Positions 801 to 47,054 of a stretch of DNA of 64,000 bases are shown one piece after another. How positions within the stretch are numbered: the first letter of the stretch is position 1; the number at the start of each line of letters is the position of its first letter. A program made the translations under genes and the position numbers. Below the pieces are notes generated by a model, which ran no database searches, was not told where the DNA came from, and saw only the letters and a program-made list of their open reading frames with translations. Source of the DNA: a virus; IMG/VR virus record IMGVR_UViG_3300037010_002844, positions 1 through 64,000 of that record. The stretch is one strand, 5' to 3'.

Positions 801-827
801 CACCGACAGGTGTGGTAGGATAAATCC

Positions 828-1283
828 ATGACCTGGGGCAAGCGACCCTCATCACGTGGTAGGGGACCGATCAACTGGAAGAAGGACGCAGAGACCTTCG
901 CGGTGCCGGTTGGCAAGATTCGGCGTCATACCCACGAGGAAGACGTCCCACTCGAGAAGCAAGAACTATACGCCGCCCACATGGTCCCGGGCGCGATGTG
1001 GGAGGTGATGAAGGACCTCGAGCTGGTCAAGCTCGGTCCCAACGTGGTGCAGCCGCCCTTTCCACTGCTGCAGGTCCACATACCTCGCACCTGGGATCCG
1101 ACCTACGATCCCAACAAGTCGACCGTTGCCCGCGCCAAGGCCATCGCTCTCTACGTTGACTCCGTCCGCGTGGATGAGCAGGGCAAGCAGGGCACGCTCC
1201 GCGTGGTCCGCCACACCTTCATCGTCGGCGGCGGGCGCTACATCATCACAGATCTCAACTGGGTCAGGCCGATTGATGACTGA
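828..1283 (+). CDS. hypothetical protein (151 aa)
   Basis: ORF preceded by GGTAGGATAAATCC directly before the ATG. Stop overlaps the next start (ATGACTGA). Confidence 0.45.
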   Translation: MTWGKRPSSRGRGPINWKKDAETFAVPVGKIRRHTHEEDVPLEKQELYAAHMVPGAMWEVMKDLELVKLGPNVVQPPFPLLQVHIPRTWDPTYDPNKSTVARAKAIALYVDSVRVDEQGKQGTLRVVRHTFIVGGGRYIITDLNWVRPIDD

Positions 1284-1563
1284 GAAGAAGCGTTCTCCAC
1301 GGCAGCTGGCCCGCCTAGCGTTGGGCGAACTCGTCATCTACAACGAACACCCGTCCCGGAAGGACGAGCCCGACCGCTTAGCGATGGTCATCGGCTGCTG
1401 GCGCTGGGGTGCTGACAGCAAGACACGGGAGGACCTCTTCAACGTCTGCCCCCGCGAGGTCGACTGGGCACAGGGCTACCTGCTACTGCCCAACTCAGAA
1501 TCGCGCTGGGTCCGTTGCTGGTTCGGCGACATAGACACACCCGAAAAGCTCCGCCGCGCTTAA
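1276..1563 (+). CDS. small hypothetical protein (about 95 aa)
   Basis: ATG at 1276 overlaps the upstream stop (translational coupling). The longer 1126..1563 frame is mostly an out-of-frame overlap with the previous gene. Contains LALGELVIYN, resembling the small-family motif. Confidence 0.4.
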   Translation: MTEKKRSPRQLARLALGELVIYNEHPSRKDEPDRLAMVIGCWRWGADSKTREDLFNVCPREVDWAQGYLLLPNSESRWVRCWFGDIDTPEKLRRA

Positions 1564-1571
1564 ACGACTTT

Positions 1572-1600
1572 CGCCCCCGAAACTCTGTGGAGTCCGGGGG
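1572..1600. terminator. bidirectional stem-loop terminator between convergent gene blocks
   Basis: GCCCCCGAAACTC-TGTG-GAGTCCGGGGGC, a 12/13 bp stem. Lies between the end of + genes (1563) and the end of - genes (1742). Confidence 0.55.
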
Positions 1601-1741
1601 CGAACCTCATTTTCGAGGCCTAGGTTACAGGGACTACGTCGGTTCGCCCTTTCACCTGCTTATAAAATATATTTGCTCAGGGCATGCACCATGCCATACC
1701 CGACCCCCGAGCGACGCTGGTTGATGGGAAGTCCCTACGGA

Positions 1742-2149
1742 CTATCCCTCTTTCTTCCCATCGCTTGACTCCTCCTCTCGCTTGATGGTCTTGAGCTGCT
1801 TGACCATCGGCTCAACCTTGGTCTTCATGACTTCATCGTAGACAGCCTGCTTGCGCGCCAGCCTCTGCCTCCGTGAAGGTCGCGTCGGCTTGCCTTTCTT
1901 TGGGACGGCAACGTATTTGTTCTTGACGAGCTTCTTTCGCTCCTCGGGCAGCTTCACCAGCTGCTTCTTCATCTGCTTACGCCACAGCTTGCGAAACTTC
2001 CGCTTCAAGCGTCGGGCATCTTCCTGCTGCAGGCCTTTCAACGCACGGCGGACGTCCATCGTCGGGTCTTCCATCGGGACGATGCCCTCTTGGAACATTG
2101 CCGTATGGATGAAGATTCGCGTGGCGTCGTTGAGCTTGTTGTTGCGCAT
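1742..2149 (-). CDS. lysine/arginine-rich basic protein, possibly DNA-binding (135 aa)
   Basis: Very basic composition (KRKFRKLWRKQMKKQLVKLPEERKKLVKNKYVAVPKKGKPTRPSRRQR). ATGA overlap with the upstream gene. Confidence 0.45.
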   Translation of the reverse strand: MRNNKLNDATRIFIHTAMFQEGIVPMEDPTMDVRRALKGLQQEDARRLKRKFRKLWRKQMKKQLVKLPEERKKLVKNKYVAVPKKGKPTRPSRRQRLARKQAVYDEVMKTKVEPMVKQLKTIKREEESSDGKKEG

Positions 2150-2484
2150 CAGCTGCCTCCGACCTTCTGCTGCCAGACTCGTCGAATCGATTCTATCGCC
2201 TGGTGCATCCGTTGTGCACCGACGGGATTGGCCGAATGAACGCTGATGATCTCAGGCGGGATGAAGTCCTGACGGGCGCACTGCTCTTCCAACCAGCAGA
2301 CAACATCGTAGCCGGTGCCTGCGCTCAGAGGTCCCAGATCGTGGTCGAGGCTTAGCTCCACCACGCGGCCCGTCTCCAACAGGCGCTGCGCGCCCGCCGC
2401 TGTCTTGGCGTGGATCCAACCTGAGGGCGCAGGCCGCTCATCATCAAGCCACAGTCGCATCGTCATCTGCTTCTGCTGGGTCAT
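2149..2484 (-). CDS. hypothetical protein (111 aa)
   Basis: ORF coupled on both sides by start/stop overlaps. Pattern LWLDDER...LSLDHDLG...ISVHSANP suggests a small Rossmann-like fold of unknown function. Confidence 0.4.
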   Translation of the reverse strand: MTQQKQMTMRLWLDDERPAPSGWIHAKTAAGAQRLLETGRVVELSLDHDLGPLSAGTGYDVVCWLEEQCARQDFIPPEIISVHSANPVGAQRMHQAIESIRRVWQQKVGGS

Positions 2485-3044: not shown

Positions 3045-4205
3045 TCACTTCTTCTTCCCTCCCGCCCCGGGCGACTTGAAGATGCCGGGGATGTCAGGAA
3101 CGATGCCGATGCCAGCCTCGCCCATCGGGACGCCGAAGACGTCCAGGACTGCGGCCGCGCAGTACTTGTGGATGCTGCGTGCCAGCTCCATTTTGTCGGT
3201 GCCAGGCAGGGTCAGCTTGGACCAGCAGTTGACGCGCTGCTCACCCGGCAGGTCCTTGAGAAACTGCTTCAGGTTGGTGCCTTGCTTCTCGGTCAGACTG
3301 TTGAGGTTCTTGGTCACGTGGTCCGAGACCTTATCGACCAGATCGTTGATGCGGTCGGCCGTGAACTTCTTGACCTTGTGCTGGACCTTGTCGTACCCGT
3401 CGATCACGTCTTTGCCCGAGACGCGGGTGTCGACGGTGACCGCGAAATCGTGGAAGGCGATCGCCGCCTCGACACCGACGAAGCCCACGGCTATGTGGTA
3501 GAACAGCGGGTTGCTGGGATCATCCGCGACCCCGGCGTGCTTGTGCGAGCGGTCCATACGCTCCCAGCTACGCCGCGAGGAATGAACGCTGCCGGCCTCG
3601 GCGCCCTTGGGCGGGTCGAGCCACTTCTCGCCGTTGGCAGCGTGGAAGTCGATCAGGGTCGGGTGAATGTCACCCTCGCCCTTTGCCCAGGCGAGCCAGT
3701 CCTTGACGTCCGGCTTGAGGTCGACGACCCAGAAGCGATCGAGGAGCGCCGGATCCATCTCGTTGACCGTGTACTCCTGTGAGGAGTTGATGGCCGACCA
3801 GACGCGGGTCTGGGGGTGCAGCTTCCAGCCGTTGAGCTCACGGTCGAGCACGATCTGGAACGCTGCCTGCATGACCTCCTGGGTCGCGCGGTTCAGCTCG
3901 TCCAGCAGGAGGAAGCAGGGCCGGACGCAGGCACGCTTGTACCAGTCGGGCGGATTGAAGCGCGTGACCTCGCCGTCGGTGCTGGGGAGGCCGATGAGAT
4001 CGCCTTCCGTCTTCTGCGACAGGCGCTGGTCGATGAACTCGAAGTCCTTGATCTGCTCCGCGTGAGCGATGATGCGGGCGACCTGGCGAGCCAGCTGCGA
4101 CTTGCCGATCCCGTGAGGACCGCGCAGCAGGACGGAGATGAAGGCGGGGAGCTTGGGAGAGACGTCCACAAGGGTATGGATCGCCATGGAGTTGGGAGTT
4201 GCCAT
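3045..4205 (-). CDS. AAA+ ATPase, AAA_5/MoxR-like subfamily
   Basis: Walker A LLRGPHGIGKSQL, Walker B FLLLDELNRA, sensor region QTRVWSAINSS. Layout typical of MoxR/CbbQ/GvpN-type AAA_5 ATPases. Confidence 0.7.
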   Translation of the reverse strand: MATPNSMAIHTLVDVSPKLPAFISVLLRGPHGIGKSQLARQVARIIAHAEQIKDFEFIDQRLSQKTEGDLIGLPSTDGEVTRFNPPDWYKRACVRPCFLLLDELNRATQEVMQAAFQIVLDRELNGWKLHPQTRVWSAINSSQEYTVNEMDPALLDRFWVVDLKPDVKDWLAWAKGEGDIHPTLIDFHAANGEKWLDPPKGAEAGSVHSSRRSWERMDRSHKHAGVADDPSNPLFYHIAVGFVGVEAAIAFHDFAVTVDTRVSGKDVIDGYDKVQHKVKKFTADRINDLVDKVSDHVTKNLNSLTEKQGTNLKQFLKDLPGEQRVNCWSKLTLPGTDKMELARSIHKYCAAAVLDVFGVPMGEAGIGIVPDIPGIFKSPGAGGKKK

Positions 4206-4249
4206 GTGGTGGTGTCTCTATCCTAACTTAGCGAGTCCCGGCTTTACAC

Positions 4250-4945
4250 TCAGGAGACGCGGTGGAGGTGCGAGGTGTTCGGCCGCCGCTCGTCGACGGT
4301 GATGGTGTACTTGCGCTCGACCTTGCCGTTGTAATCGTCCCGCGAGACGGGGTAGACGCCCGTCTTGATGCCCGGCAGCAGCGAGGAGGGGATGTTGCGA
4401 TCCTGACCCACGCGCATACCCTTGCGGACCATGTCGGCGGCCTCGTGGAGAACACGCTCGATGCGGGCTTCCTCGGCCTTGCGTTCCTGCTCGGCCATGA
4501 ACGCCGCCTGCTCCTCCGCGGTGCGGATGCAGACCGCGATCCCGTCGCCGATTTCCGCGTTGATCGCCTCCGTGAGCTCGACGACCCTGGTGTAGAACTC
4601 CAGGCGCGCCTTGGCGAGGGCGGGCCGCGTGTCTCCGTGGCTGGGCCAGTTGACCTCGACGCGGAACTTGTAGTTCCGCCAGATCGACCCGTCCTCACGG
4701 GGCTTCAGGTCGCGGGTCCAGTCGATCGTATCGAACCGCACGTAGAGGTCACAGCTCGTGTCGATCTGCTCCGTGGTATCGCGGAACATCACGGACACGT
4801 TGCCCGCGGAGCCCGACTTGCGCTGCTCGCGGAGCGACTGCATGGTGTGCGGGGACAGGTACTTCTGCGCGATCTCGCTGGCAAGGATGAGGTCGATGGC
4901 CTTGTGAGCGCGGTCGATGATGAGGGGCTGTTGCATGGCGTTCAT
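4250..4945 (-). CDS. hypothetical protein (231 aa)
   Basis: ORF preceded by the conserved 35-nt leader repeat containing GGTAGGATAGA. Confidence 0.45.
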   Translation of the reverse strand: MNAMQQPLIIDRAHKAIDLILASEIAQKYLSPHTMQSLREQRKSGSAGNVSVMFRDTTEQIDTSCDLYVRFDTIDWTRDLKPREDGSIWRNYKFRVEVNWPSHGDTRPALAKARLEFYTRVVELTEAINAEIGDGIAVCIRTAEEQAAFMAEQERKAEEARIERVLHEAADMVRKGMRVGQDRNIPSSLLPGIKTGVYPVSRDDYNGKVERKYTITVDERRPNTSHLHRVS

Positions 4946-4981
4946 GAGTCTATCCTACCAGGATCAGAGATGAAGGTTCAC
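4946..4981 (-). promoter_or_regulatory. conserved 35-nt leader/promoter repeat, copy A
   Basis: On the minus strand it reads GTGAACCTTCATCTCTGATCCTGGTAGGATAGACTC then ATG. About 80% identical to 5272-5307. Confidence 0.5.
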
Positions 4982-5271
4982 AGCAGCGCCAGCGAGATCG
5001 CCAGCTCCAGTCCGGGCTCCGTCAGTGCAAACACGTGAGCACCTGACTTCGTCTTGCCGACGACCTCGATGAAGCCTCGGTGCACCAGGGACGCTCGCCA
5101 GCCGTACCCGTCTCGTCCGGAGGTGACGAGGGAGTGCCCCCACGTCGGGCTCTGGAGCGCTCGTCGCTTCTGTTGGATCACTGCGAAATCTTTCACCGTT
5201 GCCGTCTTGTTGCGGACGAGGGTGAACAGGATATCGCGGATCGTGGGAGAAATGCGGCTTGGATTGACCAT
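4978..5271 (-). CDS. small hypothetical protein, possible winged-helix DNA-binding (97 aa)
   Basis: ORF preceded by the second copy of the 35-nt leader repeat. No strong motif. Confidence 0.4.
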   Translation of the reverse strand: MVNPSRISPTIRDILFTLVRNKTATVKDFAVIQQKRRALQSPTWGHSLVTSGRDGYGWRASLVHRGFIEVVGKTKSGAHVFALTEPGLELAISLALL

Positions 5272-5307
5272 GAGACTATCCTACCAGGTTCAGCGTTGAA
5301 GATTCAC
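5272..5307 (-). promoter_or_regulatory. conserved 35-nt leader/promoter repeat, copy B
   Basis: On the minus strand it reads GTGAATCTTCAACGCTGAACCTGGTAGGATAGTCTC then ATG. Confidence 0.5.
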
Positions 5308-5460
5308 TGCGCGCCACAGGCGCTTGACCTCACGCCATAGTTCCTCGACTGTGCACGCAATCTCCTTGCGGAACTCTTTTGAGAGAGGACGCGAGGACTG
5401 TGCCCGGACGTTGTCCGTTAGGATCTCGATGTCCGCGTCGGTCAAGGGGCGCTTGCCATG
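5294..5460 (-). pseudogene. small gene with apparent 1-nt frame disruption just after the start
   Basis: The ATG at 5458-5460 sits in the conserved ACTAGAACCATGGCAA context but opens only 5 codons (MASAP*). A 56-codon frame lacking an ATG (KRPLTDADIEILTDNVRAQ...LWRAVNLQR*) continues in the +1 frame. Confidence 0.3.
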
Positions 5461-5540
5461 GTTCTAGTTTAACTCAGCGAACCCAAAGTTTGCACTGCGA
5501 GCACAGAATATTCGTAGAATCAAGCCATAAGATACCCCGT

Positions 5541-5630
5541 CGGGCCCATGAAAGCCCTCCCGTGGGTCCCCTGTGGGCACAGTTTTGGTTGCTCATGGGC
5601 CCGAGAAGTGTAAGAGCTCATGGGCCCAGG
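5541..5630. repeat. GCTCATGGGCCC iterons in a divergent intergenic region
   Basis: GCTCATGGGCCC occurs directly at 5591-5602 and 5615-5626. Its inverse GGGCCCATGA occurs at 5543-5552. Lies in the 480-bp spacer between the - block and the RecA-like gene. Confidence 0.5.
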
Positions 5631-5851
5631 GTACTATAAGACCATGAGCAACGCCTTCTAGAACTTCGTCAGGCAGCACGATACAGGCATCTCGCGGACC
5701 GGGTGTCCACGCGGCACCTCTCGGGTTCGATCTTGACCTGACTCACCTGTCGGAGCTGCTGCGGCTTGCCCAGCAGACGGGTTACCAGCTCTGCAACACG
5801 GGCTGGGATGACTGCATCATGGTCACCTAGACTTTCAGCGTTGGCTGATCG

Positions 5852-5880: not shown

Positions 5881-5941
5881 GGTGAAAATCAGCGCCTGGG
5901 CGTGATAGACTGTAGACCTCCACCACCACGGGGTAAGATAT

Positions 5942-6706
5942 ATGGCGAGCATGAACCTCAACGTCGGAATCAAGGGCCTGAAGCAGGGCACCAACATCAT
6001 GGATGTTGAGGTGCCTGAGAAGCTGAAGCAGCGCATCAAGACCGGCATCACCTGGTTCGATGACGCGGTTGGTGGCCAGGGTTTCGTGCCCAGCTCCGTC
6101 ATGATGCTGACCGGTACGCCTGGCGCCGGCAAGACCACGATGCTGCTGCAGCTGGCGGACGCCATCACCGGGCAGGGGAACATCTGCCTCTACAACACCG
6201 GCGAGGAGTCGCTCTACCAGGTGCGCATGGTGACCGAGCGCCTGAAGTTGAAGCACGGCTTCATCTGTGGCCAGGACATCATGGTGCCCGACCTGCTGAA
6301 GCACGCGGACGCGCTGCGCAAGGCCAACCCGAAGAAGCAGGTCTTCATTCTGCAGGACTCGCTGCAGACCCTGGACGACGGCAAGTACTCCAACGGTACC
6401 AATGGCGCCACGCCGCTGCGCTGCGTCGAGATGCTGACCGACTGGGCGAAGAGCACCTACGGCATCGTCATCTTCATCGGACAGGTCAACAAGAGCGGCG
6501 AATTCGCCGGCAAGAACGGGATCCTCCACGCGATCGACGTCCGCGGGTCGCTCTACATCGACCAGGAGAAGAACAGCGAGACCTACGGGGAGCGCATCTT
6601 CGAGGTCACCAAGAACCGCTTCGGTTGCTCGGGCCGCGCCTACGTCCTCGGCTTCCAGGAGAAGGGGCTCTTCGAGAAGGGCAGCTTCGGCATGAACGAG
6701 CGCTGA
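5942..6706 (+). CDS. RecA-superfamily ATPase (RadA/KaiC/Sak4-like recombination or DnaB-C-like)
   Basis: TWFDDAVGG...VMMLTGTPGAGKTTMLLQL Walker A. Walker B-like VFILQDS. RecA-fold layout. Confidence 0.6.
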   Translation: MASMNLNVGIKGLKQGTNIMDVEVPEKLKQRIKTGITWFDDAVGGQGFVPSSVMMLTGTPGAGKTTMLLQLADAITGQGNICLYNTGEESLYQVRMVTERLKLKHGFICGQDIMVPDLLKHADALRKANPKKQVFILQDSLQTLDDGKYSNGTNGATPLRCVEMLTDWAKSTYGIVIFIGQVNKSGEFAGKNGILHAIDVRGSLYIDQEKNSETYGERIFEVTKNRFGCSGRAYVLGFQEKGLFEKGSFGMNER

Positions 6707-7576: not shown

Positions 7577-7738
7577 TTCCGCAACTCACAGGTAGAGTTC
7601 ATAGTCGAAGTTCCACACGGGGATGCGGGCACGGGCCCAAGAAAAAGCTTCCAACCCCGCGGCAACCCCATCTCTTTGCCGGCATTTATGCAAATGTTCT
7701 GAGTGCAAAGCTCGCTTGGGAAGGGATAGAATCTGAAC

Positions 7739-17687: not shown

Positions 17688-18176
17688 ATGCAGCCTAACA
17701 CGCGTAGGAGCATTGTGGACTTCGGACTGAACGTCGGTGACATCGTTACGTTTGCGTCTGAGAACGATAACACCGGTGGGTGTATCTATCAGATCGTCTT
17801 CGACCAGACGCCCATAGCGCCGCACACCACGCGGCGCACGACCACACGAACTCGAACAAAGTTCAACTGGCGGGACAATAGCAAATCTCAAGAAACTGAG
17901 ACGTACGAACACGTCGAACACGGCAGGTGGGACGAACAAGGTCGCAAGATCAAGCCTTGCGACGTCGCCGGCTACGTTCGTATCAAGCCGCTGTTCACCT
18001 TCTATCCGACGCCTCGAGGCAAGAAGCCCAAGGGAGCGGGTGAGACCATCATGGTCTACTACGGCCATGGTGTTTCACAGTTGAAGAAGGTCGAGGTTGC
18101 TGACCTGGGTGCCAAATACGTGGAACTGGGCGAACTGATGAAGTTCCTGCTCCGTAAGGGAGGCGCCGAACTGTGA
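17688..18176 (+). CDS. paralog-family protein A2 (162 aa)
   Basis: Paralog of 15769..16269. Confidence 0.5.
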   Translation: MQPNTRRSIVDFGLNVGDIVTFASENDNTGGCIYQIVFDQTPIAPHTTRRTTTRTRTKFNWRDNSKSQETETYEHVEHGRWDEQGRKIKPCDVAGYVRIKPLFTFYPTPRGKKPKGAGETIMVYYGHGVSQLKKVEVADLGAKYVELGELMKFLLRKGGAEL

Positions 18177-18752: not shown

Positions 18753-18801
18753 ACAATAAGTAGGCGAGTACTCAGGCCGTAGCAGGGGTTAGGATAGACG
18801 C

Positions 18802-29009: not shown

Positions 29010-29046
29010 ACAGCCATTCTACCGCGTGGGTAGGGCTCTGTACACA

Positions 29047-32807: not shown

Positions 32808-33444
32808 TACACCCACCTCCTGTGCGGCCTGCGGAACCTGTCGATTTTGTCGACCAAGACTTGATTCATGATCTCGACCGCGATTCCCAACATGTCTTCC
32901 TCGGACCTTGAACGTCGATTGAACTGTCCATTCTAAGTGATGCTGCCGAGGTCGTCGAGGCCCAAGGATCGCATCTCTGAATCCAACCAATTGCCGATCG
33001 TCACCAGCTCACGGGTCCGCGGGTCACAGGCCCATTGAGCAGGTCGATTGGCGGCGTTGGGCAACGCCGAAATGTTTTGCAGGCATCACAACACATATTC
33101 TTCGGACGCGTGAATGCGCCGCGCTCAAGAGCTGGTCGCTTTCAACGATCGTCTTGATCACACGCTTGTTGCACTGCATCTGCACAGCCAGCTTGGGATC
33201 GGTGCTAAGGATGAAGATGTTCAACAGTTCTTAACTGGTCGCTTGTTGTAGAGGACCACATCCTTCTTGTTCTTGGCGGCCTCGATCAACTTCGGCAGCA
33301 TGCTCTTACGAATCATGATGATATGGCCGTCCTTGACCGTTGAGCACACCACGCCATTGATGTCGTAGACTTCTATCGTGAAGTCGACTGCATCATCCAA
33401 CACTTTTCGTCTTACATGCCGCCATCCTACACCAGATGCGGTGG

Positions 33445-34344
33445 TTACTTCATTCGACCAACAGCACGCAGCAATCGCTTGTTGTAACCGCCAAACGAAC
33501 CCGCGAGCAGGACGCTAGGGTCGACCCAGCGGACAACGCCCGATTCTTCGGTGTCGATTTGGCCCTCAACGCGGCCGGTAAACGTGATAACGTGGTAACC
33601 TCCCTCGTCGACGTCTTCAAAGACTTGATTCAAGTCAGTGATGTGAAGGCCCGTCTCTTCTTCCAGCTCACGGGCCGCTGCAGTCGCTGCGTCCTCGCCT
33701 GGGTCGATCTTGCCACCGGGCAGGCCAAAGTCGCTTGGGTCATTCTTCCCGGAGACTGCGAGGATCTTGCCAGCGCGATTCATCACCAACACACAAGCCG
33801 CACGAGGCAGTGCGGCGGCGTCCTGTTGGACCTTGGCGTCCACGTCAGCCTCATCGTCCAGGATGTTACGATTCTTCTGAGCCAACGTGGCGTCCCCGTA
33901 GCGCAAGTTGCCGGCGACGCCGTCGCGGCCTGCAGTGTTCAACGACTTGAAGCCCGTCAACACTTCGTTGACGAAGACCTTTAGCAGCTCGTGAGACTCT
34001 CGGGCCGGCGTCCTGTAGGGACCCATATCGGGTGACTCTGCGGATTGATCGTCCTGAACGTCAAAGCCTGCTGCGTCGAGGTCGGTGATGAACCGACCAC
34101 GCTCTTCGGGAGTCATCTCCACGAAGATAAAGCGCTCAGTGTCAGCCATGTCATAGGCCCCCGACGACTGACGCCAGGGTTCTTGCGTGGCATTCCACTT
34201 GGCGAGCACCTTGCGTAGCCTCGACCAGTGATCCTGTGACTGCTCAAACGTCCACGTCTTGGACAGGCGGACGTTGCCAGCTCGCCAAGGACCGACCTTC
34301 AATGGCAGAAACTTGCTCATTTCTTCGGTTGTGGGGTTGGACAA
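33445..34344 (-). CDS. Nudix hydrolase with N-terminal extension domain
   Basis: Nudix box GGKIDPGEDAATAAARELEEETGL (GX5EX7REUXEEXGU) in the C-terminal half. Confidence 0.7.
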   Translation of the reverse strand: MSNPTTEEMSKFLPLKVGPWRAGNVRLSKTWTFEQSQDHWSRLRKVLAKWNATQEPWRQSSGAYDMADTERFIFVEMTPEERGRFITDLDAAGFDVQDDQSAESPDMGPYRTPARESHELLKVFVNEVLTGFKSLNTAGRDGVAGNLRYGDATLAQKNRNILDDEADVDAKVQQDAAALPRAACVLVMNRAGKILAVSGKNDPSDFGLPGGKIDPGEDAATAAARELEEETGLHITDLNQVFEDVDEGGYHVITFTGRVEGQIDTEESGVVRWVDPSVLLAGSFGGYNKRLLRAVGRMK

Positions 34345-37499: not shown

Positions 37500-38336
37500 T
37501 CAGCCTTCTCCCCACAGCGGTTCAAACGTCGCCACGAACTTGTCCCACGTCTTGTCCTTGAGCAGCGACTTGAAATCGTGTTGTTCGAACAACTTTCGCA
37601 GTGGCTCCCAATCCTTGGTCGGATGCGAGCACGACATCTCAAGGGCCTCATCATCGGACCAGGTGATGAACTTGATGAGTTCGTAGTTCCTTGAGAACGT
37701 ATCACCTATAACCGAATCGCACAGCAGTAGGTCAGACAGCGCCTCAGGGTCATTGACGATGCGATCAGCGGCCCCGTCAGTGATGATGCCCGGGATGTTA
37801 TCGCTGGGGTCGCCGCGCAAAGCCTTCCAGGTGACGTAATCGTAGTCGGGTACCTCAACGAACTCCTTTTTCATTGGGTTATAGAGGCTAACGTTCGGGA
37901 ACTCGTTCAACAACTGCGTGAAATCCGAATCATTAGATGCCACGACCCACGGGACCGCAGAGCTAGAGCGCTTGATGAGATTGTAGATGGTATCGTCGCA
38001 CTCGTAGTGTGGGTGGCGCACCACAGAGACCGGAAAGTGCTGGCTCAGGTGATCCACGATCACGTGGACTTGCTCGAAGAACTTCACAAGCTCATCGTGC
38101 TCGGGAGTCCCGGGCTCTACCACGCGGTTGGCCTTGTACTCCGGTAGGATGTCCTTACGCTGTTGCGGATGACCCTCCAGGACGAAGTAGACACGGGTCG
38201 GCTTATGGAGTTCGACCTGTGCCCGAAAGTTTCGCATGAAGTTGAAGATGACGGGTGCGGACCCCAACTGCCAACCGCTCCGAGCGCGGTGGAGGAAGTT
38301 CATGCCGTCAATGCAAAGAATCTTTGGATTGCCCAT
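37500..38336 (-). CDS. 5'-3' exonuclease / flap endonuclease (T4 RNase H-like)
   Basis: KILCIDGMNFLHRA, YKANR, ECDDTIYNL and SNDSDFTQLL are the FEN/5'-3' exonuclease motifs. Confidence 0.8.
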   Translation of the reverse strand: MGNPKILCIDGMNFLHRARSGWQLGSAPVIFNFMRNFRAQVELHKPTRVYFVLEGHPQQRKDILPEYKANRVVEPGTPEHDELVKFFEQVHVIVDHLSQHFPVSVVRHPHYECDDTIYNLIKRSSSAVPWVVASNDSDFTQLLNEFPNVSLYNPMKKEFVEVPDYDYVTWKALRGDPSDNIPGIITDGAADRIVNDPEALSDLLLCDSVIGDTFSRNYELIKFITWSDDEALEMSCSHPTKDWEPLRKLFEQHDFKSLLKDKTWDKFVATFEPLWGEG

Positions 38337-38613
38337 GATTGACTCTACCACTCTGACAGGTGAATTTCACAGCAATAGCTCAAGTCCCTCGTAGACCGGC
38401 GTCGTAGTGATCTTCGATAATGTCGGCCACCTTATCGAAAATCCGTTCTTGTGCCATGGTCTCAGTCTACCTATCAAGGGTCAAAGATTGCGCTGTGGCC
38501 CAAATGAGCCCACGGATCACGAGAATGACCCAAAAAGAGGAGGTGGTTTCCCCTTCTTGGGCCGTGCAGGCACTCACGTGGGTCACGCGGGGGCCGAGTT
38601 TGGGCCACAGGAA

Positions 38614-42935: not shown

Positions 42936-43298
42936 TTACTGTTCCTTACGCTCAAGCTCGCGGAGCAGCACATTCTCTCGCATTTCGTCAGTGATCCAGG
43001 ATTCCCTGGAGCCATTTTCGGCCTCGTACTGCACTATACCAACTTCGTACATCTTCCAGGGCGAAATCCGAGCTTCCTTGCAGCGCTGCCACCAGGTGAC
43101 CAACGCATACAGTCCATGATCGAACGCGTAACGCTGCACGTCCTCGGTCAACATGTTGATTTCACCACGTTGACGGACGTACTCGTACTCCAGGATCTCT
43201 TCCCAGGTTGGGAGGCACAAAATGGTGTTGTTCCACTTGACGACCTCGGCGTAAACGCCGAACTCAGGATCGCCTGGCTTGGTGCGTTCCCGTTCCAT
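42936..43298 (-). CDS. hypothetical protein (120 aa)
   Basis: ORF only. Confidence 0.4.
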   Translation of the reverse strand: MERERTKPGDPEFGVYAEVVKWNNTILCLPTWEEILEYEYVRQRGEINMLTEDVQRYAFDHGLYALVTWWQRCKEARISPWKMYEVGIVQYEAENGSRESWITDEMRENVLLRELERKEQ

Positions 43299-43333
43299 GC
43301 CTCGAGTCTACCTTGTGAGTAGGCAGAGGTTCA

Positions 43334-43591
43334 CTACTTCTGCTTTGCCAATTTCACGAAGACATCATAAGGGATCATCTTCAGTGCCTTGACGGCCATA
43401 TCGACGGTCTTGAAGTATTCAACAAGGTCTTTTTCATCCTTGATGTCACCCTTCATCACTGCCTCGATGACGCGGTCCTGCAAGTCCTCGCGAATACGCT
43501 CCTTTTTCATGTAGTCCTCAGAGGCAGAGATCGCCTCGCGGATCAGGCTGCGCAGCCTCGACAATGACAGCTTCATCCGAGTAAGTATCAA
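43334..43591 (-). CDS. N-terminal targeting-motif family protein (85 aa)
   Basis: MKLSLSRLRSLIREAISASEDY. Confidence 0.45.
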   Translation of the reverse strand: MILTRMKLSLSRLRSLIREAISASEDYMKKERIREDLQDRVIEAVMKGDIKDEKDLVEYFKTVDMAVKALKMIPYDVFVKLAKQK

Positions 43592-44456: not shown

Positions 44457-44752
44457 GGCTGCTCCTTGGTTCTCTCGAACTTGATCAGACGATTGCCTTC
44501 AAATCTTGCAACAATGAAGCCCCAACTCTCACGAGGGCCAGAATCGATTGTTCCCACGATACCATTCAACTGGCCAAGAAATCCCAAAAGACCAGTTGGG
44601 CACTGGATTGATTTGTGATTTAGCGTGGCCTTCGAGGAGATAGGCGTCTTTCCGTACAGGATGAGACGTCCAACATCCTGGGCAACGTCAGGGTCAACGA
44701 CAATGTCATTGAGACGCTCGATCACTTCATCAGCAAACGCTCGATCGTCCAT
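44453..44752 (-). CDS. hypothetical protein (99 aa)
   Basis: ORF only. Confidence 0.35.
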   Translation of the reverse strand: MDDRAFADEVIERLNDIVVDPDVAQDVGRLILYGKTPISSKATLNHKSIQCPTGLLGFLGQLNGIVGTIDSGPRESWGFIVARFEGNRLIKFERTKEQP

Positions 44753-44766
44753 GTAACAATCCTACA

Positions 44767-45060
44767 TCACTGAGCAGGATCAGTCAATGCCTCGATGAAC
44801 AAGTCGAACGTATCTTTGTGCGCCACGCCACGCTGAATCTGGACGACACGGAGGGCAGCCGTCAGCGTCTTCATGTCGAGCTTTTCTGCGTACTCCTCGA
44901 TGATTTCCTTGCGGTCCTCCTTGAGGAGGTCGATCTCGTTGTCGACATTGTTGATCTTGCCGATGAACTCCTTGACGAGGGCGCGTAGGGCGTTAACCTC
45001 ATCCGGCATCATCTCGCCGATGTTATACTGTTTCTCAGGACCCTTGCTTCGCTTTGCCAT
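44767..45060 (-). CDS. hypothetical coiled-coil protein (97 aa)
   Basis: ORF only. Confidence 0.35.
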   Translation of the reverse strand: MAKRSKGPEKQYNIGEMMPDEVNALRALVKEFIGKINNVDNEIDLLKEDRKEIIEEYAEKLDMKTLTAALRVVQIQRGVAHKDTFDLFIEALTDPAQ

Positions 45061-45092
45061 GTTCTGAAAGATACTACACGTGAACTCAGTGT

Positions 45093-46211
45093 TCAGAAGC
45101 TTTTGATCTTCTGAATAACGCTCTCGTAGTCTCGAACATAGCCGCTGTTCTTGGGAATGCCGGCCTCGAGGACCTGCTTGACGTTGCCTTCCAACGACTT
45201 CACATAGAACTCCTTCATGGATTTCTTGACCGTTGCTAGCATCTGCTGCTCTGCAGCCTGGCGTTCCTCGGGCTTGGCTTGCTGTAGTTTATCGAGTCCC
45301 TTCAACGGCTTGCCGATCTTCTTCTGTAGCTCTTCCACCGACTTGGCGGTGCAGACGGCCTGAGCATGTTCCAACACTGTCTTCAAGGTATTGTGCACTG
45401 CCGCCCGCGCTTTCTTCTGCATACGCTGAGCCTCCGGCGAACTGAGCGCCTTCTTGACGACTTTTTCAGAGGTGATCAGGTCGACCACCTTCTGCTTCTT
45501 GTTTTTCTTTTGATCGTCCTCACGGATGACGCTCTCGTGAGTGCCACCGTAACCTCCGCCCCCGCCATAATCGAATCCGTACATATAGTCCATGCCCATC
45601 GTGCCGCCACCTCCATAGCCGCCCGCTGGTGATTCGAAGTGATCCTTGCTGCTTTTGCCAGTACCAAAGCCCCCGCCGATTGCCTTACGGACCTTTTCGA
45701 TCCACGAGTCCAGCGTGCCGCCCGACAGGATGCCCAACATTCTTAGCGCAACATCAGGGGCCTTCTTGGCCATGACGCCCGTCAGGACGGCACCAGGATA
45801 ACAGAAGAACGCCGTCAGCGCCACATCGGTCTGCTTGAAGGCGTCCCAGGTCGCTGCATAGACCTCACTGTACTCGTTGCGGATCTTGTCGAGCTCTTCC
45901 TTTTCCTTGTCGAAGATCTCCTTGTAATCAGACGTCAAGAAAGGCAGCAGGCTCGTCGCCACTGCCTCAAAGCCGACCTTGGCCAGGGTCTGAACGCGCT
46001 GGCTCATCTCCTTGGTCTTGCCAACGGCGACGTCGACCACGTCAACGAAAGGCTTAACAAACGCCTTGTAGAGCATATCGCCCGACGTGTAGTGAACGCC
46101 ATACGGCGTCATCGCGTAGGCAGCACTCATCACAGAGGCAACGTCGTCCCCCTCTTTCAGGACTGTTCTGACGTACTCACGTAGGACCTGATGTTCCTTG
46201 AGGCGCTTCAT
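45093..46211 (-). CDS. hypothetical protein with Gly/Tyr-rich low-complexity segment (372 aa)
   Basis: GGGFGTGKSS...AGGYGGGGTMGMDYMYGFDYGGGGGYGG. N-terminus MKRLKEHQVLREYVRTVL is a weak match to the shared motif. Confidence 0.4.
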   Translation of the reverse strand: MKRLKEHQVLREYVRTVLKEGDDVASVMSAAYAMTPYGVHYTSGDMLYKAFVKPFVDVVDVAVGKTKEMSQRVQTLAKVGFEAVATSLLPFLTSDYKEIFDKEKEELDKIRNEYSEVYAATWDAFKQTDVALTAFFCYPGAVLTGVMAKKAPDVALRMLGILSGGTLDSWIEKVRKAIGGGFGTGKSSKDHFESPAGGYGGGGTMGMDYMYGFDYGGGGGYGGTHESVIREDDQKKNKKQKVVDLITSEKVVKKALSSPEAQRMQKKARAAVHNTLKTVLEHAQAVCTAKSVEELQKKIGKPLKGLDKLQQAKPEERQAAEQQMLATVKKSMKEFYVKSLEGNVKQVLEAGIPKNSGYVRDYESVIQKIKSF

Positions 46212-46554
46212 CTCGACTAAATACCACCGGGCGCCCCGACATTTCAGACCAACGTCGCGCTAGTTCGTAACGGTTGATGTTGACTTCCTTGCGCAGGGGT
46301 GCCGGCAACGTCTTCAACAATTCACGATTGATGACCTTCCACTCATCCACGTGAGCGGCATACGTAAAGACATCAGCAAGGGCCTCGACTATTTTCGGGT
46401 CCATTCAGCAACTCCGACAGGATCTTGAGAGCTCGATACAGGTTCTGTCGAAGGAACTCAATGTCTGCGGCGTCCTGCACTTGGTCAACACTACCCGACA
46501 CTGGGTACTTGATTTCGATATAGAAATCCTCATCGACTGACGGTGGATTGGCCT

Positions 46555-47019
46555 TCACCCTTCCTCCTTATGAAAGGCCTCATGCAGGCGATTGACGGCC
46601 TCTGCAATCAACGCACGTTGGTAGGCGTGAATGATCGGCAGCTCGCCGACCCTGAACCAACGCGCGTCGGCGACCTCAGAATCTGGATCGCTGGCATCAG
46701 GCACCCGTGAGCACGATTGCTGTGCCAGGTACGAGACCACGGTCTTGTCTTCATGCTTGTAGCCGGCATACGCGTCAGGCAGACGATCCTCTAGGATGAC
46801 GTCAATTCCTGCTTCTTCACGGGTCTCACGGGTCGCGCACTGTTCCGGTGTCTCGCCTTCGTGCATGTGACCCTTGGGAATGCCCCACGAGTCCTTGTGA
46901 GCGAACTGCTTCACCAGCAAAATACACGTGTCATCCCAGGTTTCTCCAAACCTGTACACCAGCGTGCCACAAGAGATGGTCTTTCGGCGCTCCTTGTGCT
47001 CCTTGTTCTTTGCTCCCAT
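46555..47019 (-). CDS. Nudix hydrolase
   Basis: Nudix box GIPKGHMHEGETPEQCATRETREEAGI. Start at MGAKNKEH is preceded by GTGTAGGATAACTAGC. Confidence 0.7.
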   Translation of the reverse strand: MGAKNKEHKERRKTISCGTLVYRFGETWDDTCILLVKQFAHKDSWGIPKGHMHEGETPEQCATRETREEAGIDVILEDRLPDAYAGYKHEDKTVVSYLAQQSCSRVPDASDPDSEVADARWFRVGELPIIHAYQRALIAEAVNRLHEAFHKEEG

Positions 47020-47054
47020 GCTAGTTATCCTACACTGGATCCGGAGATTTTGAC

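What the first reader, a model, noticed from the sequence alone, without database searches (positions are those of the whole stretch)
814..47035. Conserved GGTAGGATAGA element 5-14 nt upstream of at least six start codons, possibly a leaderless-type promoter -10
GGTAGGATA(A/G)A occurs just before the ATG of the genes at 828, 4205, 4945, 5271, 18802 and 47019. For 4945 and 5271 it sits inside a 35-nt direct repeat (4946-4981 and 5272-5307) that also carries GTGAAC/GTGAAT about 17 nt upstream. For gene 828 a TTGCAA lies 18 nt upstream.

TAGGAT fits the TAnnnT -10 consensus, and the 5-7 nt distance to the A of ATG is what leaderless mRNAs show. The AGGA core could equally be an extended Shine-Dalgarno.

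Either way, it marks a distinct class of genes with a shared expression signal.
Basis: seen in the sequence. Interest (0 to 1): 0.5.

Follow-up and report, generated by a model that had tools for sequence, protein, structure and literature searches.

The report
Leaderless-gene promoters of a jumbo phage
The repeated GGTAGGATAGA is very probably the -10 box of a bacterial-type promoter placed directly against the start codon, so these genes of a large uncultured phage would be transcribed without a leader. This is a known way of expressing genes, seen here in a new phage family and with an unusual upstream box.

Summary
TAGGATA occurs 7 times against about 1 expected. Six copies lie directly before a start codon, four of them on the minus strand. 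The seventh, at 26956, is inside an ORF and is the expected chance copy.

The motif is one allele of a wider signal: GTG(C/A/T)A(A/C/T), 18 nt, TAnnnT, 6 nt, ATG.
- The strict pattern occurs 11 times in the window against 0.08 in shuffles. It occurs 22 times when 5.75 kb of adjoining contig is added.
- G at -14 is present in 20 of 22 sites, and C at -1 before the A of ATG in 21 of 22.
- Other -10 alleles at the same spacing (TACACT, TACGAT, TAGAAT, TAGACT) have no Shine-Dalgarno complementarity.
- The same promoter with a leader is followed by a canonical GGAGG.
- Orthologues in a related phage keep the 6-nt spacing but change the hexamer (TAGGAT to TAATAT).

The leaderless -10 reading is therefore supported, and the Shine-Dalgarno reading is rejected as the main role.

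The window is part of a 309-kb metagenomic phage contig. At least 20 viral contigs (GC 42-63%) carry the same architecture, with a longer box, CRGTGCAAAGTY. No transcription start site has been mapped, and the host and the sigma factor are unknown. This is a known kind of signal in a new family.

The parts
792..830 (+). Full promoter with a leaderless start. TTGCAA (792-797), 18 nt, TGG-TAGGAT (816-821), AAATCC, ATG 828. Gene 828-1283.
4943..4981 (-). Full promoter with a leaderless start. GTGAAC (4981-4976), 18 nt, TGG-TAGGAT (4957-4952), AGACTC, ATG 4945. Gene 4250-4945 (231 aa).
   Evidence: The orthologue in L002 has the same promoter type but a 65-nt leader and a Shine-Dalgarno sequence.
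5269..5307 (-). Full promoter with a leaderless start. GTGAAT, 18 nt, TGG-TAGGAT (5283-5278), AGTCTC, ATG 5271. Gene 4978-5271 (97 aa, weak EarA-like match).
   Evidence: The orthologue at L002 9322(-) is also leaderless but with TAATAT, and the alignment starts at residue 1.
4203..4249 (-). Same promoter type with a short leader. GTGTAA (4249-4244), 18 nt, TAGGAT (4225-4220), then 14 nt (AGAGACACCACCAC) before ATG 4205. Gene 3045-4205 (AAA_5 ATPase). The predicted 5' UTR is about 8 nt.
18766..18804 (+). TAGGAT (18790-18795), AGACGC, ATG 18802. Gene 18802-19035 (77 aa). The -35 position reads GAGTAC, one mismatch from GTGTAC.
47017..47056 (-). TAGGAT (47032-47027), 7 nt, ATG 47019. NUDIX gene 46555-47019. 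No GTGNAN box, so this looks like a -10-only site (GTG directly before TAGGAT).
44750..44788 (-). TAGGAT (44764-44759), TGTTAC, ATG 44752. Gene 44453-44752 (99 aa). The TGA stop of the upstream gene is embedded in TGATGTAGGAT. TTGACT lies 17 nt upstream.
33415..33453 (-). TAGGAT (33429-33424), GGCGGC, then ATG TAA (a start-stop). The next ORF, 33221-33403, starts at a GTG 14 nt downstream of the ATG.
428..466 (+). Same promoter class with another -10 allele. GTGCAT, 18 nt, TGA-TACACT, AGAACC, ATG 464. A strong terminator hairpin (394-431) overlaps the -35 box.
7703..7741 (+). GTGCAA, 18 nt, TAGAAT, CTGAAC, ATG 7739 (221 aa). The orthologue at L002 11615 is leaderless with TAGAGT.
13777..13815 (+). 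GTGCAT, 18 nt, TGG-TACGAT, GGAGTC, ATG 13813 (239 aa).
15748..15786 (+). CTGAAC, 18 nt, TATGAT, GATACC, ATG 15784 (161 aa). A weaker member of the class.
17653..17690 (+). GTGCAA, 18 nt, TACCAT, 5 nt, ATG 17688 (162 aa).
29007..29045 (-). GTGTAC, 18 nt, TAGAAT, GGCTGT, ATG 29009. GroEL-like chaperonin gene 27402-29009.
38334..38370 (-). GTGAAA, 17 nt, TGG-TAGAGT, 5 nt, ATG 38336. 5'-3' exonuclease gene 37500-38336.
43296..43334 (-). GTGAAC, 18 nt, TAGACT, CGAGGC, ATG 43298 (120 aa).
5457..5495 (-). GTGCAA, 18 nt, TAAACT, AGAACC, ATG 5459, followed by a 5-codon ORF. A 51-aa ORF (5290-5445) follows in another frame.
5608..5646 (+). GTGTAA, 18 nt, TACTAT, AAGACC, ATG 5644, followed by a 5-codon ORF. 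There is no long ORF before 5942.
9888..9926 (+). GTGAATCTTCAC, ..., TAAGAT, AAGCTC, ATG 9924, followed by a 26-codon ORF.
2147..2219 (-). Leadered version of the same promoter. GTGCAC, 18 nt, TAGAAT, then a gap of about 40 nt that contains GGAGG 6 nt before ATG 2149. Gene 1742-2149.
5882..5944 (+). Leadered version. GTGAAA, 18 nt, TGA-TAGACT, then about 24 nt of leader (CCACCACCAC...), ATG 5942. KaiC/RadA-like gene 5942-6706.
53144..53158 (-). -10-only site. TGATG-TAAGAT, TGGGAG, ATG 53146 (132 aa). The upstream gene's TGA stop is embedded in the site.
56611..56625 (-). -10-only site. TGATG-TAGTAT, GAGGGC, ATG 56613 (171 aa). The upstream gene's TGA stop is embedded in the site.
51683..51721 (-). 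GTGATC, 18 nt, TAGGGT, ACACGC, ATG 51685 (69 aa). A possible member of the class.
26957..26962 (-). TAGGAT inside ORF 26773-27000. No start codon follows. This is the background copy and not part of the system.

Best explanation
GGTAGGATA(G/A)A is the -10 region of a sigma-70-family promoter. It comprises G at -14, G at -13, the hexamer TAGGAT at -12 to -7, and the first bases of the discriminator (the stretch between the hexamer and the start site).

It works together with a -35-position box, GTG(C/A/T)A(A/C/T), exactly 18 nt upstream. Because the hexamer ends 6 nt before ATG, RNA polymerase would start at the A of ATG, with C at -1. The mRNA would then have no 5' UTR and no Shine-Dalgarno sequence, and would be translated by the leaderless route.

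The element belongs to a 309-kb uncultured phage, in which almost every small gene of one region has its own copy. TAGGAT is simply the commonest of several interchangeable TAnnnT alleles.

**Shown**
- The motif, its spacing and its statistics.
- The co-occurring box.
- The absence of Shine-Dalgarno sequences at these sites.
- Conservation of the architecture across related phages.

**Inferred**
- That transcription starts at the A of ATG.
- That the host primary-sigma holoenzyme reads the promoter. This rests on a promoter of this type lying upstream of the relatives' own sigma gene.
For: 1. **Position.** Among 76 called genes, TAnnnT lies exactly 6 nt before the start in 10, against 0.4 expected. 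Every other gap from 0 to 59 holds 0-3.
2. **Full pattern.** [GT]TGNAN-N18-TANNNT-N6-ATG occurs 11 times in the window against 0.08 in 200 dinucleotide shuffles (largest 1). It occurs 22 times against 0.055 when 5.75 kb of adjoining contig is added.
3. **Logo of the 22 sites.** G at -14 in 20 of 22, G at -13 in 16 of 22, C at -1 in 21 of 22, and always ATG. Pyrimidine at -1 with purine at +1, and G at -14, are established features of promoters, not of ribosome binding sites.
4. **Other -10 alleles lack Shine-Dalgarno complementarity.** TACACT, TACGAT, TAGAAT, TAGACT, TACCAT and TAGAGT occur at the same spacing. Among the leaderless-type genes the only anti-Shine-Dalgarno matches are short 4-mers, in 6 of 20. 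Four of these are the AGGA inside TAGGAT, and the other two are a GTGA and an AAGG at 12-nt spacing.
5. **The genome uses canonical Shine-Dalgarno sequences elsewhere.** About half of the called genes (39 of 76) have a match of 4 nt or more to AAGGAGGTGA, among them GGAGG, AAGGAG and GGAGGTGA. The same promoter type with a leader is followed by GGAGG (2195-).
6. **Orthologues.** Window 5271(-) TAGGAT-N6-ATG corresponds to L002 9322(-) TAATAT-N6-ATG, aligned from residue 1. Window 7739 TAGAAT corresponds to L002 11615 TAGAGT. The orthologue of window 4945(-) has the same promoter type with a 65-nt leader and GGTGAGGTGG.
7. **Leadered promoters in relatives keep C at -1 and A at +1.** They often read N5-C-ATCAAC at the position where leaderless ones read N5-C-ATG.
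8. **Family level.**
   - In 20 multi-hit IMG/VR loci, 215 of 260 GTG[ACT]A[ACT]-N18-TANNNT matches have ATG at gap 6, and C at -1 in 200 of those 215.
   - In 95 loci (732 kb), TANNNT at gap 6 occurs 266 times against a background of about 38.
   - 135 sites that were not selected on the box still show CRGTGCAAAGTY at -38 to -27.
9. **Literature.**
   - TANNNT starting about 12 nt before the start codon is the accepted signature of leaderless genes (PMC3160421).
   - In Deinococcus radiodurans a TANNNT motif 6-7 bp upstream of ORFs was shown experimentally to act as the -10 region, to interact with RpoD (the primary sigma), and not to be replaceable by a ribosome binding site (PMC12340547).
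   - TAnnnT together with 33% leaderless mRNAs is reported in Corynebacterium glutamicum (PMC3890552).
Against: - No transcription start site has been mapped for this phage or any relative, and the host is unknown.
- The upstream box starts with G (21 of 22), not the T of TTGACA. In relatives it extends to 12 conserved bases, longer than a normal sigma region-4 contact, so a factor other than the host sigma could read it.
- Five TAGGAT-type sites lack the box (18790, 33429, 44764, 47032, and 26962, which is the intragenic background copy). Their promoter status rests on the -10 and the spacing alone.
- TAG and TAA alleles at gap 6 are in-frame stop codons, which could inflate counts based on the first ATG of an ORF. 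However, gaps 0, 3 and 9 show no such peak, TAC alleles occur, and the -35 box cannot arise that way.
- -10 alleles containing AGG or GGA are over-represented in leaderless-configured promoters (32% against about 8%). A secondary ribosome-binding role on read-through transcripts is therefore not excluded.
Confidence: 0.82

Rival explanations
1. The element is an extended Shine-Dalgarno or 'start-associated' translation signal. The AGGA core would pair with the 16S 3' end at 7-8 nt spacing on transcripts that start far upstream.
For: - AGGA lies 7 nt from ATG, which is an optimal spacing.
- -10 alleles containing AGG or GGA make up 130 of 412 leaderless-configured promoters in the family, against 12 of 155 other matches.
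- Many of these genes follow co-directional genes without a visible terminator, so read-through transcripts are plausible.
Against: - Only 4 nt are complementary to the anti-Shine-Dalgarno sequence. The conserved T at -12, A at -11 and T at -7 play no part in pairing.
- Most sites of the class have alleles with no complementarity.
- The spacing is fixed at 6 nt rather than spread over 5-10 nt.
- The orthologue changes TAGGAT to TAATAT.
- Real Shine-Dalgarno sequences in the window are GGAGG, AAGGAG or GGAGGTGA.
- A box co-occurring at a fixed 18 nt has no meaning for a ribosome site.
- Shine-Dalgarno-like 4-mers in the family sit at positions fixed by the promoter consensus (2, 7 and 12 nt), not in a broad peak. 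The test by gene context was not significant, P = 0.096.
Confidence: 0.05
2. It is a promoter, but one read through a phage-encoded factor rather than the unaided host primary sigma. The factor could be a phage sigma or a MotA-like box-binding activator, and the GTGCAAAGT-type box would be its recognition site.
For: - The box is 10-12 nt long and nearly invariant (CRGTGCAAAGTY) in phages whose GC content ranges from 42 to 63%.
- No bacterial species representative had more than one match to the strict pattern. The only multi-hit locus was a phage-like contig binned into a Bdellovibrionota metagenome-assembled genome (MAG).
- 13 related loci encode a sigma-70-like protein with regions 2 and 3 but no recognisable region 4.2.
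Against: - In most sigma-bearing loci a GTGCAA-18-TAnnnT promoter lies 330-400 nt upstream of the sigma gene on the same strand. The promoter should therefore work before that sigma is made.
- A sigma without region 4.2 would not be expected to read a -35-position box.
- The window phage's own box is looser (GTGCAA, GTGAAY, GTGTAA, TTGCAA), as host-read promoters often are.
- No sigma gene was found in the window or in the flanking DNA fetched on either side, 10 kb to the left and about 8 kb to the right.
- Phage early promoters read by the host enzyme can differ from the host consensus. T4 early promoters are an example (my own knowledge).
Confidence: 0.2
3. It is the binding site of a repressor or other regulator, or merely sequence left by recent duplication of small gene cassettes, with no promoter role.
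For: - The two copies at 4946-4981 and 5272-5307 share 31 of 36 bases, including the spacer.
- A subset of boxes reads GTGAAYCTTCA(C), which is nearly palindromic.
- A separate palindrome, TGCAACnnRTTGCA, lies next to three of the promoters.
Against: - GGTAGGATAGA has no dyad symmetry.
- The invariant positions are exactly T at -12, A at -11 and T at -7.
- The genes downstream of the copies are unrelated to each other.
- The same architecture, with different spacers and different hexamer alleles, is found in distant relatives with 48% protein identity.
Confidence: 0.03

Closest known systems
The '-10-motif adjacent to ORFs' of Deinococcus-Thermus, and the TA-led (leaderless) genes of Actinobacteria and other bacteria (PMC12340547, PMC3160421, PMC3890552, PMC4633059)
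   Same: - TAnnnT lies 6-7 nt before the start codon.
- These genes have no Shine-Dalgarno sequence, and they coexist with GGAG-type sites on other genes.
- Gene callers often place the start too far downstream. Here JGI started two of these genes 3 and 6 codons late.
   Different: - Here the signal is in a phage, not a cellular genome.
- Most sites also carry a strongly conserved box at the -35 position. The D. radiodurans study found that most such genes lack a classical -35.
- The box begins GTG rather than TTG.
- The start codon is always ATG in the 22 strict sites.
Leaderless middle and late transcripts of Thermus phages phiYS40 and P23-45 (Sevostyanova et al. 2007, listed as bib46 in PMC12340547; details are from my own knowledge, because the paper was not held in the library)
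   Same: - A large phage whose promoters abut the start codon, so that many phage mRNAs are leaderless.
- Both -10/-35 and -10-only promoter classes occur in one genome.
- There is a possible link to translation initiation factors.
   Different: - In phiYS40 the leaderless class is the -10-only middle and late class.
- Here the best-supported leaderless class has a -35-position box and precedes small early-like genes.
- There is no sequence relationship to those phages.
Start-associated sequences of Cluster K mycobacteriophages (my own knowledge: a 13-bp GGGATAGGAGCCC motif a few bp upstream of start codons)
   Same: A conserved motif of 11-13 nt immediately upstream of a subset of phage start codons, containing a purine-rich AGGA core.
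   Different: - That motif contains a full AGGAG, is thought to act in translation, and has variable spacing.
- Here the invariant bases are TA...T, the spacing is fixed, and a box lies at 18 nt.
- The sequences are not the same.
T4-type phage promoters: early (variant -35 plus extended -10) and middle (MotA box at -30 plus -10) (my own knowledge)
   Same: - Phage-specific, highly uniform promoters with a normal TAnnnT -10.
- The upstream element differs from the host -35 consensus.
- There is one promoter per small early gene.
   Different: - T4 transcripts have leaders and Shine-Dalgarno sequences.
- The MotA box has a different sequence and lies closer to the -10.
- No MotA or AsiA homologue was looked for or found here.

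Membership tests
Sigma-70-family (-35/-10) promoter | -10 hexamer with T at -12, A at -11 and T at -7 | tested here: met
   All reader sites are TAGGAT. The class shows TAnnnT with a sharp positional peak.
Sigma-70-family (-35/-10) promoter | A second element about 17 nt (plus or minus 1) upstream of the -10 | tested here: met
   GTGNAN lies at 18 nt (occasionally 17). The full pattern occurs 11 times against 0.08 in the window and 22 times against 0.055 with the extension. The sequence is GTG(C/A/T)A(A/C/T), not TTGACA, so a generic TTGACA/TATAAT scan missed almost all of these sites. Its only overlap was the TAGAAT -10 of the leadered promoter at 2190-2219, paired with a different upstream hexamer.
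Sigma-70-family (-35/-10) promoter | Extended -10 (TG at -15/-14) | tested here: inconclusive
   G at -14 in 20 of 22 sites, but T at -15 in only 10 of 22. In relatives the motif is TGGTAnnnT, 21 copies against 3.9 expected in L002.
Sigma-70-family (-35/-10) promoter | Pyrimidine at -1 and purine at +1, at 7 nt from the -10 | tested here: met
   C at -1 in 21 of 22 sites with A at +1. In relatives C at -1 in 200 of 215. Leadered promoters often keep CAT at the same position.
Sigma-70-family (-35/-10) promoter | RNA polymerase holoenzyme initiates transcription there | not testable with these tools
   This needs 5'-end mapping or in vitro transcription.
Leaderless (TA-led) gene | -10 hexamer ends 6-7 nt before the start codon | tested here: met
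   The gap is 6 in four of the six reader sites, 7 in one and 14 in one. The class peaks at 6. It matches the 6-7 bp reported in PMC12340547.
Leaderless (TA-led) gene | No Shine-Dalgarno sequence between the promoter and the start; AUG start | tested here: met
   Only 4-nt matches to the anti-Shine-Dalgarno sequence occur, in 6 of 20 leaderless-type genes. Four are the AGGA inside the hexamer and two lie 12 nt from the start. All 22 strict sites start with ATG.
Leaderless (TA-led) gene | The mRNA 5' end coincides with the start codon | not testable with these tools
   No transcript data are available.
Shine-Dalgarno ribosome binding site | Complementarity to the 16S 3' end is the conserved feature | tested here: not met
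   The conserved bases are TA...T. Alleles without complementarity are the majority. The orthologue swaps TAGGAT for TAATAT.
Shine-Dalgarno ribosome binding site | Spacing to the start codon spread over about 5-10 nt | tested here: not met
   The element has a single-position peak at gap 6. Real Shine-Dalgarno 5-mers in the family show a broad peak over gaps 4-9.
Cluster K mycobacteriophage start-associated sequence | The 13-bp GGGATAGGAGCCC consensus (from memory) | not tested
   The sequence differs by eye. No search with that motif was run.

The most novel reading that the evidence does not exclude
The motif is the visible tip of an expression programme shared by a large, uncultured family of jumbo phages (200-310 kb, GC 42-63%).

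- Most small early genes would be made as leaderless mRNAs from a family-specific promoter: CRGTGCAAAGTY, then G at -14, then TAnnnT, N5, C, ATG.
- The 12-nt box would be read by a phage-directed mechanism rather than by the plain host sigma.
- A phage sigma that lacks region 4.2 would then switch transcription to -10-only or TAnTTA promoters, which also abut start codons.
- A phage IF-1 homologue would help tune the host ribosome towards leaderless initiation.
Probability: 0.2. Interest if true: 0.7.

Novelty: new member of a known kind. Interest (0 to 1): 0.42.

Why it matters
**Annotation.** These phage genes should be started at the promoter-adjacent ATG. The public gene calls start two of them 3 and 6 codons late. 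The rule GTGMAW-N18-TAnnnT-N6-ATG gives a cheap way to find gene starts, tiny ORFs and transcription units in a whole family of uncultured jumbo phages.

**Biology.**
- The host must translate leaderless mRNAs efficiently. That narrows the candidate hosts to lineages known for this, such as Actinobacteria, Deinococcus-Thermus, and some former Deltaproteobacteria and Acidobacteria (PMC3160421).
- The family offers a natural set of several hundred near-identical promoters that differ mainly in the three middle bases of the -10.
- Whether the unusual upstream box is read by the host sigma or by a phage factor is a clear, testable question.

Tried and rejected
- **Nucleotide searches against cultured phages.** Two 20-24 kb pieces of the window gave no match. 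An exact 54-nt search of IMG/VR also gave nothing.
- **A too-specific pattern.** GTGAAYCTTCA-N13-TAGNNT-N5-CATG found nothing in IMG/VR.
- **Two mis-counted searches.** Searches used a spacer of 21-22 nt instead of 17-18 nt and should be ignored.
- **Identifying the host failed.**
  - GroEL, endolysin, peptidase, the KaiC-like protein and a 2,950-aa concatenate of ORFans gave only distant or contaminant hits.
  - Sample and run accessions are not in the paper library.
  - Names of cluster members carry no taxonomy.
  - The only binned relative sits in a Bdellovibrionota MAG. For a 17-kb contig that is weak evidence.
- **Literature search for the box sequence** returned only primers.
- **Rfam** found nothing in the window.
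- **The generic sigma-70 scan** missed almost all of these promoters because of the GTG box. It was still useful for finding the terminator at 394-431.
- **Looking for the sigma gene on this contig.**
  - None was found in the window's proteins.
  - None was found in the flanking DNA fetched on either side, 10 kb to the left and about 8 kb to the right.
  - None of the best 120 sigma homologues lies on a 309,481-bp contig.
- **A dual -10/Shine-Dalgarno role** was tested by gene context. The result was not significant, P = 0.096.
- **An ORF-definition artefact** (TAG or TAA as an in-frame stop at -12) was considered and rejected.

Full report
**1. The observation**

The 11-mer GGTAGGATARA is present exactly at 814-824 (+) and 4949-4959 (-), against none in shuffles. 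With one mismatch it is also at 4217 (-), 5275 (-) and 18788 (+): 5 copies against 0.51 expected. The core TAGGATA occurs 7 times against 0.99 expected.

Reading each site shows that six copies lie directly upstream of an ATG on their own strand, and that four of the six are on the minus strand. The gap between TAGGAT and ATG is 6 nt at 828, 4945, 5271 and 18802, 7 nt at 47019 and 14 nt at 4205. The seventh copy (26956-26962, -) lies inside an ORF and is the copy that chance predicts.

Six of the 23 TAGGAT hexamers having ATG exactly 6 nt downstream gives a binomial P of 1.3e-6. The 36-nt repeat between 4946-4981 and 5272-5307 is 31 of 36 identical.

**2. What the window is**

The window has about 57% GC and carries no tRNA. 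Identifiable genes include:
- a GroEL-like chaperonin;
- a major-vault-protein-like protein;
- two NUDIX proteins;
- an ADP-ribosylglycohydrolase;
- a GH25 lysozyme next to a papain-like peptidase;
- a 5'-3' exonuclease;
- thymidine kinase, thymidylate synthase and a dCMP deaminase;
- two CCA-adding/poly(A) polymerase-type nucleotidyltransferases;
- an Fe/Mn superoxide dismutase;
- an IF-1 homologue.

Many other genes are ORFans.

An identical protein places the window on a 309,481-bp JGI metagenome contig, Ga0373632_0000002. No cultured phage is similar at the nucleotide level, and protein hits are distant. I treat it as an uncultured jumbo phage of unknown host.

**3. The motif is one allele of a larger signal**

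Listing the sequence upstream of 77 roughly called genes showed many other TAnnnT hexamers exactly 6 nt before ATG:
- TACACT before 464;
- TAGAAT before 7739 and before the GroEL-like gene at 29009 (-);
- TACGAT before 13813;
- TAGACT before 43298 (-);
- TAAGAT before 53146 (-);
- TAGTAT before 56613 (-).

The offset profile has a single peak: 10 of 76 genes at gap 6 against 0.4 expected, and 0-3 at every other gap.

Exactly 18 nt upstream of these hexamers lies GTG(C/A/T)A(A/C/T).

The strict pattern [GT]TGNAN-N18-TANNNT-N6-ATG occurs 11 times in the window against 0.08 in 200 dinucleotide-preserving shuffles (largest 1). It occurs 22 times against 0.055 once 5,751 nt of the same contig beyond window position 1 are added. 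In that extra stretch almost every small gene has its own copy.

The logo of the 22 sites is GTG(C/A)A(A/C/T) - N18 - TAG(A/G)(A/C)T - AGAnnC - ATG, where the spacer ends in G at -14 (20 of 22) and G at -13 (16 of 22), and C at -1 occurs in 21 of 22.

**4. Promoter or Shine-Dalgarno?**

Five lines of evidence separate the two.

- *Which bases are invariant.* They are T at -12, A at -11 and T at -7. The AGGA is not conserved. Most alleles at the same spacing have no complementarity to the 16S 3' end.
- *What real ribosome sites look like here.* About half of the called genes (39 of 76) have a match of 4 nt or more to AAGGAGGTGA, including GGAGG, AAGGAG and GGAGGTGA, and across the related loci such 5-mers peak broadly at gaps 4-9. 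The same promoter type placed further upstream is followed by such a site: 2195 (-) has TAGAAT, then GGAGG 6 nt before ATG 2149.
- *The start-site dinucleotide.* C at -1 with A at +1, together with G at -14, are features of RNA polymerase initiation, not of ribosome binding (established knowledge of sigma-70 promoters).
- *Distant relatives.* L002 and L003 share 48% protein identity in the 231-aa orthologue. L017 is a 17-kb contig binned into a Bdellovibrionota MAG. All use GTG(C/T)AA-N17/18-(TGG)TAnnnT.
  - Orthologous genes keep the 6-nt spacing while changing the hexamer: TAGGAT to TAATAT, with the alignment starting at residue 1, and TAGAAT to TAGAGT.
  - One orthologue has the same promoter type with a 65-nt leader and a strong Shine-Dalgarno sequence.
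- *Leadered promoters in relatives.* They often read N5-C-ATCAAC at the position where leaderless ones read N5-C-ATG. The same C and A are kept whether or not a start codon is there.

One possible artefact was checked. TAG and TAA at -12 are in-frame stops, which could inflate counts based on the first ATG of an ORF. This does not explain the data: gaps 0, 3 and 9 show no peak, TAC alleles occur, and the artefact could not create the -35 box.

**5. A family-wide architecture**

A scan of IMG/VR with GTGCAAA-N15-GGTAnnnT-N5-CATG returned 95 loci. At least 20 contigs carry two or more matches, and contigs range up to 298 kb. These loci encode close homologues of window proteins: the KaiC/RadA-like protein at 74-77% identity and the AAA_5 ATPase at 58-60%.

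- In 20 multi-hit loci, 215 of 260 box-plus-hexamer matches have ATG at gap 6, with C at -1 in 200 of those 215. Locus GC content ranges from 42 to 63%.
- After removing every site that matched the search pattern, 135 sites chosen only as TANNNT-N6-ATG with an ORF of at least 40 codons still show CRGTGCAAAGTY at -38 to -27, G at -14 and ACC at -3 to -1.
- The commonest -10 alleles are TATACT (56), TAGGAT (42), TATAGT (23), TAAGGT (22) and TATATT (22). TATAAT occurs once.
- Across all 95 loci (732 kb), TANNNT at gap 6 occurs 266 times against a background of about 38.

**6. Which polymerase reads it?**

The bipartite layout, the 17-18 nt spacer and the TAnnnT hexamer point to a sigma-70-family holoenzyme.

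Thirteen related loci encode a sigma-70-like protein that is 35-40% identical to E. coli RpoD from region 2 through region 4.1. Pfam finds regions 2 and 3 but not region 4, and the protein ends shortly after region 4.1. In most of these loci a GTGCAA-18-TAnnnT promoter lies 330-400 nt upstream of the sigma gene on the same strand.

I infer that the GTGCAA class is read before that sigma exists, that is, by the host enzyme, and that the phage sigma serves another promoter class. This is inference only. No sigma gene was found in the window or in the flanking DNA fetched on either side, 10 kb to the left and about 8 kb to the right. The length and invariance of the box across a wide GC range leave room for a phage-directed recognition mechanism.

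**7. Comparison with what is known**

- TANNNT whose first T lies about 12 nt before the start codon is the published in-silico signature of leaderless genes. Such genes make up more than 20% of genes in Actinobacteria and Deinococcus-Thermus, and a substantial share in Acidobacteria and Deltaproteobacteria (PMC3160421).
- In D. radiodurans the motif lies 6-7 bp upstream of ORFs. It was shown to act as a -10 region that interacts with RpoD, to need that spacing, and not to be replaceable by a ribosome binding site. A -35 added at 17 bp increased expression (PMC12340547).
- C. glutamicum has TAnnnT, a weak ttgnca -35 and 33% leaderless mRNAs (PMC3890552).
- Thermus phage phiYS40 is, to my knowledge, the closest phage precedent, with -10-only middle and late promoters and mostly leaderless transcripts. 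I could not read that paper here.

The present case is a new member of this kind. It differs in being a phage early-type class with a strongly conserved GTG-initial box.

**8. Verdict**

The leaderless -10 interpretation is supported, with confidence about 0.8 because no transcription start site has been mapped. The Shine-Dalgarno alternative is rejected as the main role.

A minor ribosome-binding contribution of AGGA on read-through transcripts cannot be excluded. Alleles containing AGG or GGA are enriched. However, the Shine-Dalgarno-like 4-mers sit at positions fixed by the promoter consensus, and the gene-context test was not significant.

Interest is moderate. The mechanism is known, but the family-wide, near-uniform leaderless promoter with its unusual box, the region-4-less phage sigma in relatives and the phage IF-1 homologue make the system worth a transcript-mapping experiment.

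Noticed in passing
window 23547-23879 (-): The phage encodes a homologue of translation initiation factor IF-1 (Pfam eIF-1a/IF-1, E = 9.8e-22). It is 51% identical to E. coli IF1 over 70 residues and has a Lys-rich N-terminal extension. This is notable in a genome with so many putative leaderless genes.
   Followed up: partly
window 3042(-), 7515(-), 9180(+), 18762(-), 19932(+), 23987(-), 26071(+), 27011(-), 36747(-), 43587(-), 46223(-), 56086(-): A second start-adjacent motif, (gcc)TA-n-TTA, lies 4-6 nt before ATG or GTG of real-sized ORFs. There are 12 cases at gaps 4-6 against about 1 expected. The motif is also present across the family, with 29 and 12 cases at gaps 5 and 6 against a background of about 3 in 95 IMG/VR loci. 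It may be a separate promoter class, perhaps the one read by the phage sigma.
   Followed up: partly
L053 375-1253 (-). Also L022, L024, L033, L042, L047, L075, L076, L077, L096, L097, L101, L112: Related phages encode a sigma-70-like protein of about 255-296 aa with regions 2 and 3 and region 4.1, but no region 4.2 helix-turn-helix. At least 120 homologue clusters (90% identity) share 54% identity or more, some on contigs up to 357 kb. A GTGCAA-18-TAnnnT promoter lies 330-400 nt upstream of the gene.
   Followed up: partly
window 783-796, 5864-5877, 7537-7550; L017 878-891 and 2040-2053: The palindrome TGCAACnn(G/A)TTGCA lies just upstream of, or overlaps, three promoter regions and recurs in a relative. 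It could be an operator or a hairpin.
   Followed up: partly
window 5457-5459 (-), 5644-5646 (+), 33415-33417 (-), 9924 (+): Full-consensus promoters are followed by very short ORFs of 5, 5, 1 (ATG TAA) and 26 codons. At 5459 a run of four C residues, CCCC, precedes a 51-aa ORF in another frame. The cause could be a leaderless mini-ORF, a 14-nt leader with a TTG start, or an assembly indel.
   Followed up: no
window 4206-4219 (-) and 5912-5941 (+): Both short leaders of leadered promoters contain CACCACCAC or CCACCACCAC and have no Shine-Dalgarno sequence. A related leader in the adjoining contig reads ...CCACCACGGAAG.
   Followed up: no
window 394-431 (+): A strong terminator-like hairpin (17-bp stem with 13 GC pairs) has a 3' arm that supplies the GTGCAT box of the next promoter. 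Terminator and promoter are fused.
   Followed up: no
window 44759-44769, 53153-53163, 56620-56630 (-): Three -10-only sites share TGATG-TAnnAT-N6-ATG. The TGA is the stop codon of the upstream gene, which gives a fixed 14-nt intergenic module.
   Followed up: partly
window 4250-4945 (-) and 3045-4205 (-): The public JGI gene calls start these two genes 3 and 6 codons downstream of the promoter-adjacent ATG (228 against 231 aa, and 380 against 386 aa). A Logan assembly calls the 231-aa form.
   Followed up: yes
window 11150-13729 (+), 22300-23169 (+), 31682-32656 (-), 2149-2484 (-): Unusual cargo:
- an 859-aa protein with major-vault-protein shoulder and repeat domains and an SPFH domain;
- an ADP-ribosyltransferase-like protein, together with an ADP-ribosylglycohydrolase;
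- a cREC_REC (cyclic-phosphate processing receiver) domain protein.

   Followed up: no
window 16527-16862 (+) and 17325-17684 (+): Two small ORFs (111 and 119 aa) give local matches to the T4 Gp23 major capsid family (Pfam best E = 2.1e-08, and blastp to T4 gp23). They are far too short to be capsid proteins.
   Followed up: no
IMG/VR loci L023-L094 (family level): The canonical TATAAT occurs once among 260 -10 hexamers, while TATACT, TAGGAT, TATAGT and TAAGGT dominate. Alleles containing AGG or GGA make up 32% of leaderless-configured promoters, against about 8% of other matches.
   Followed up: partly
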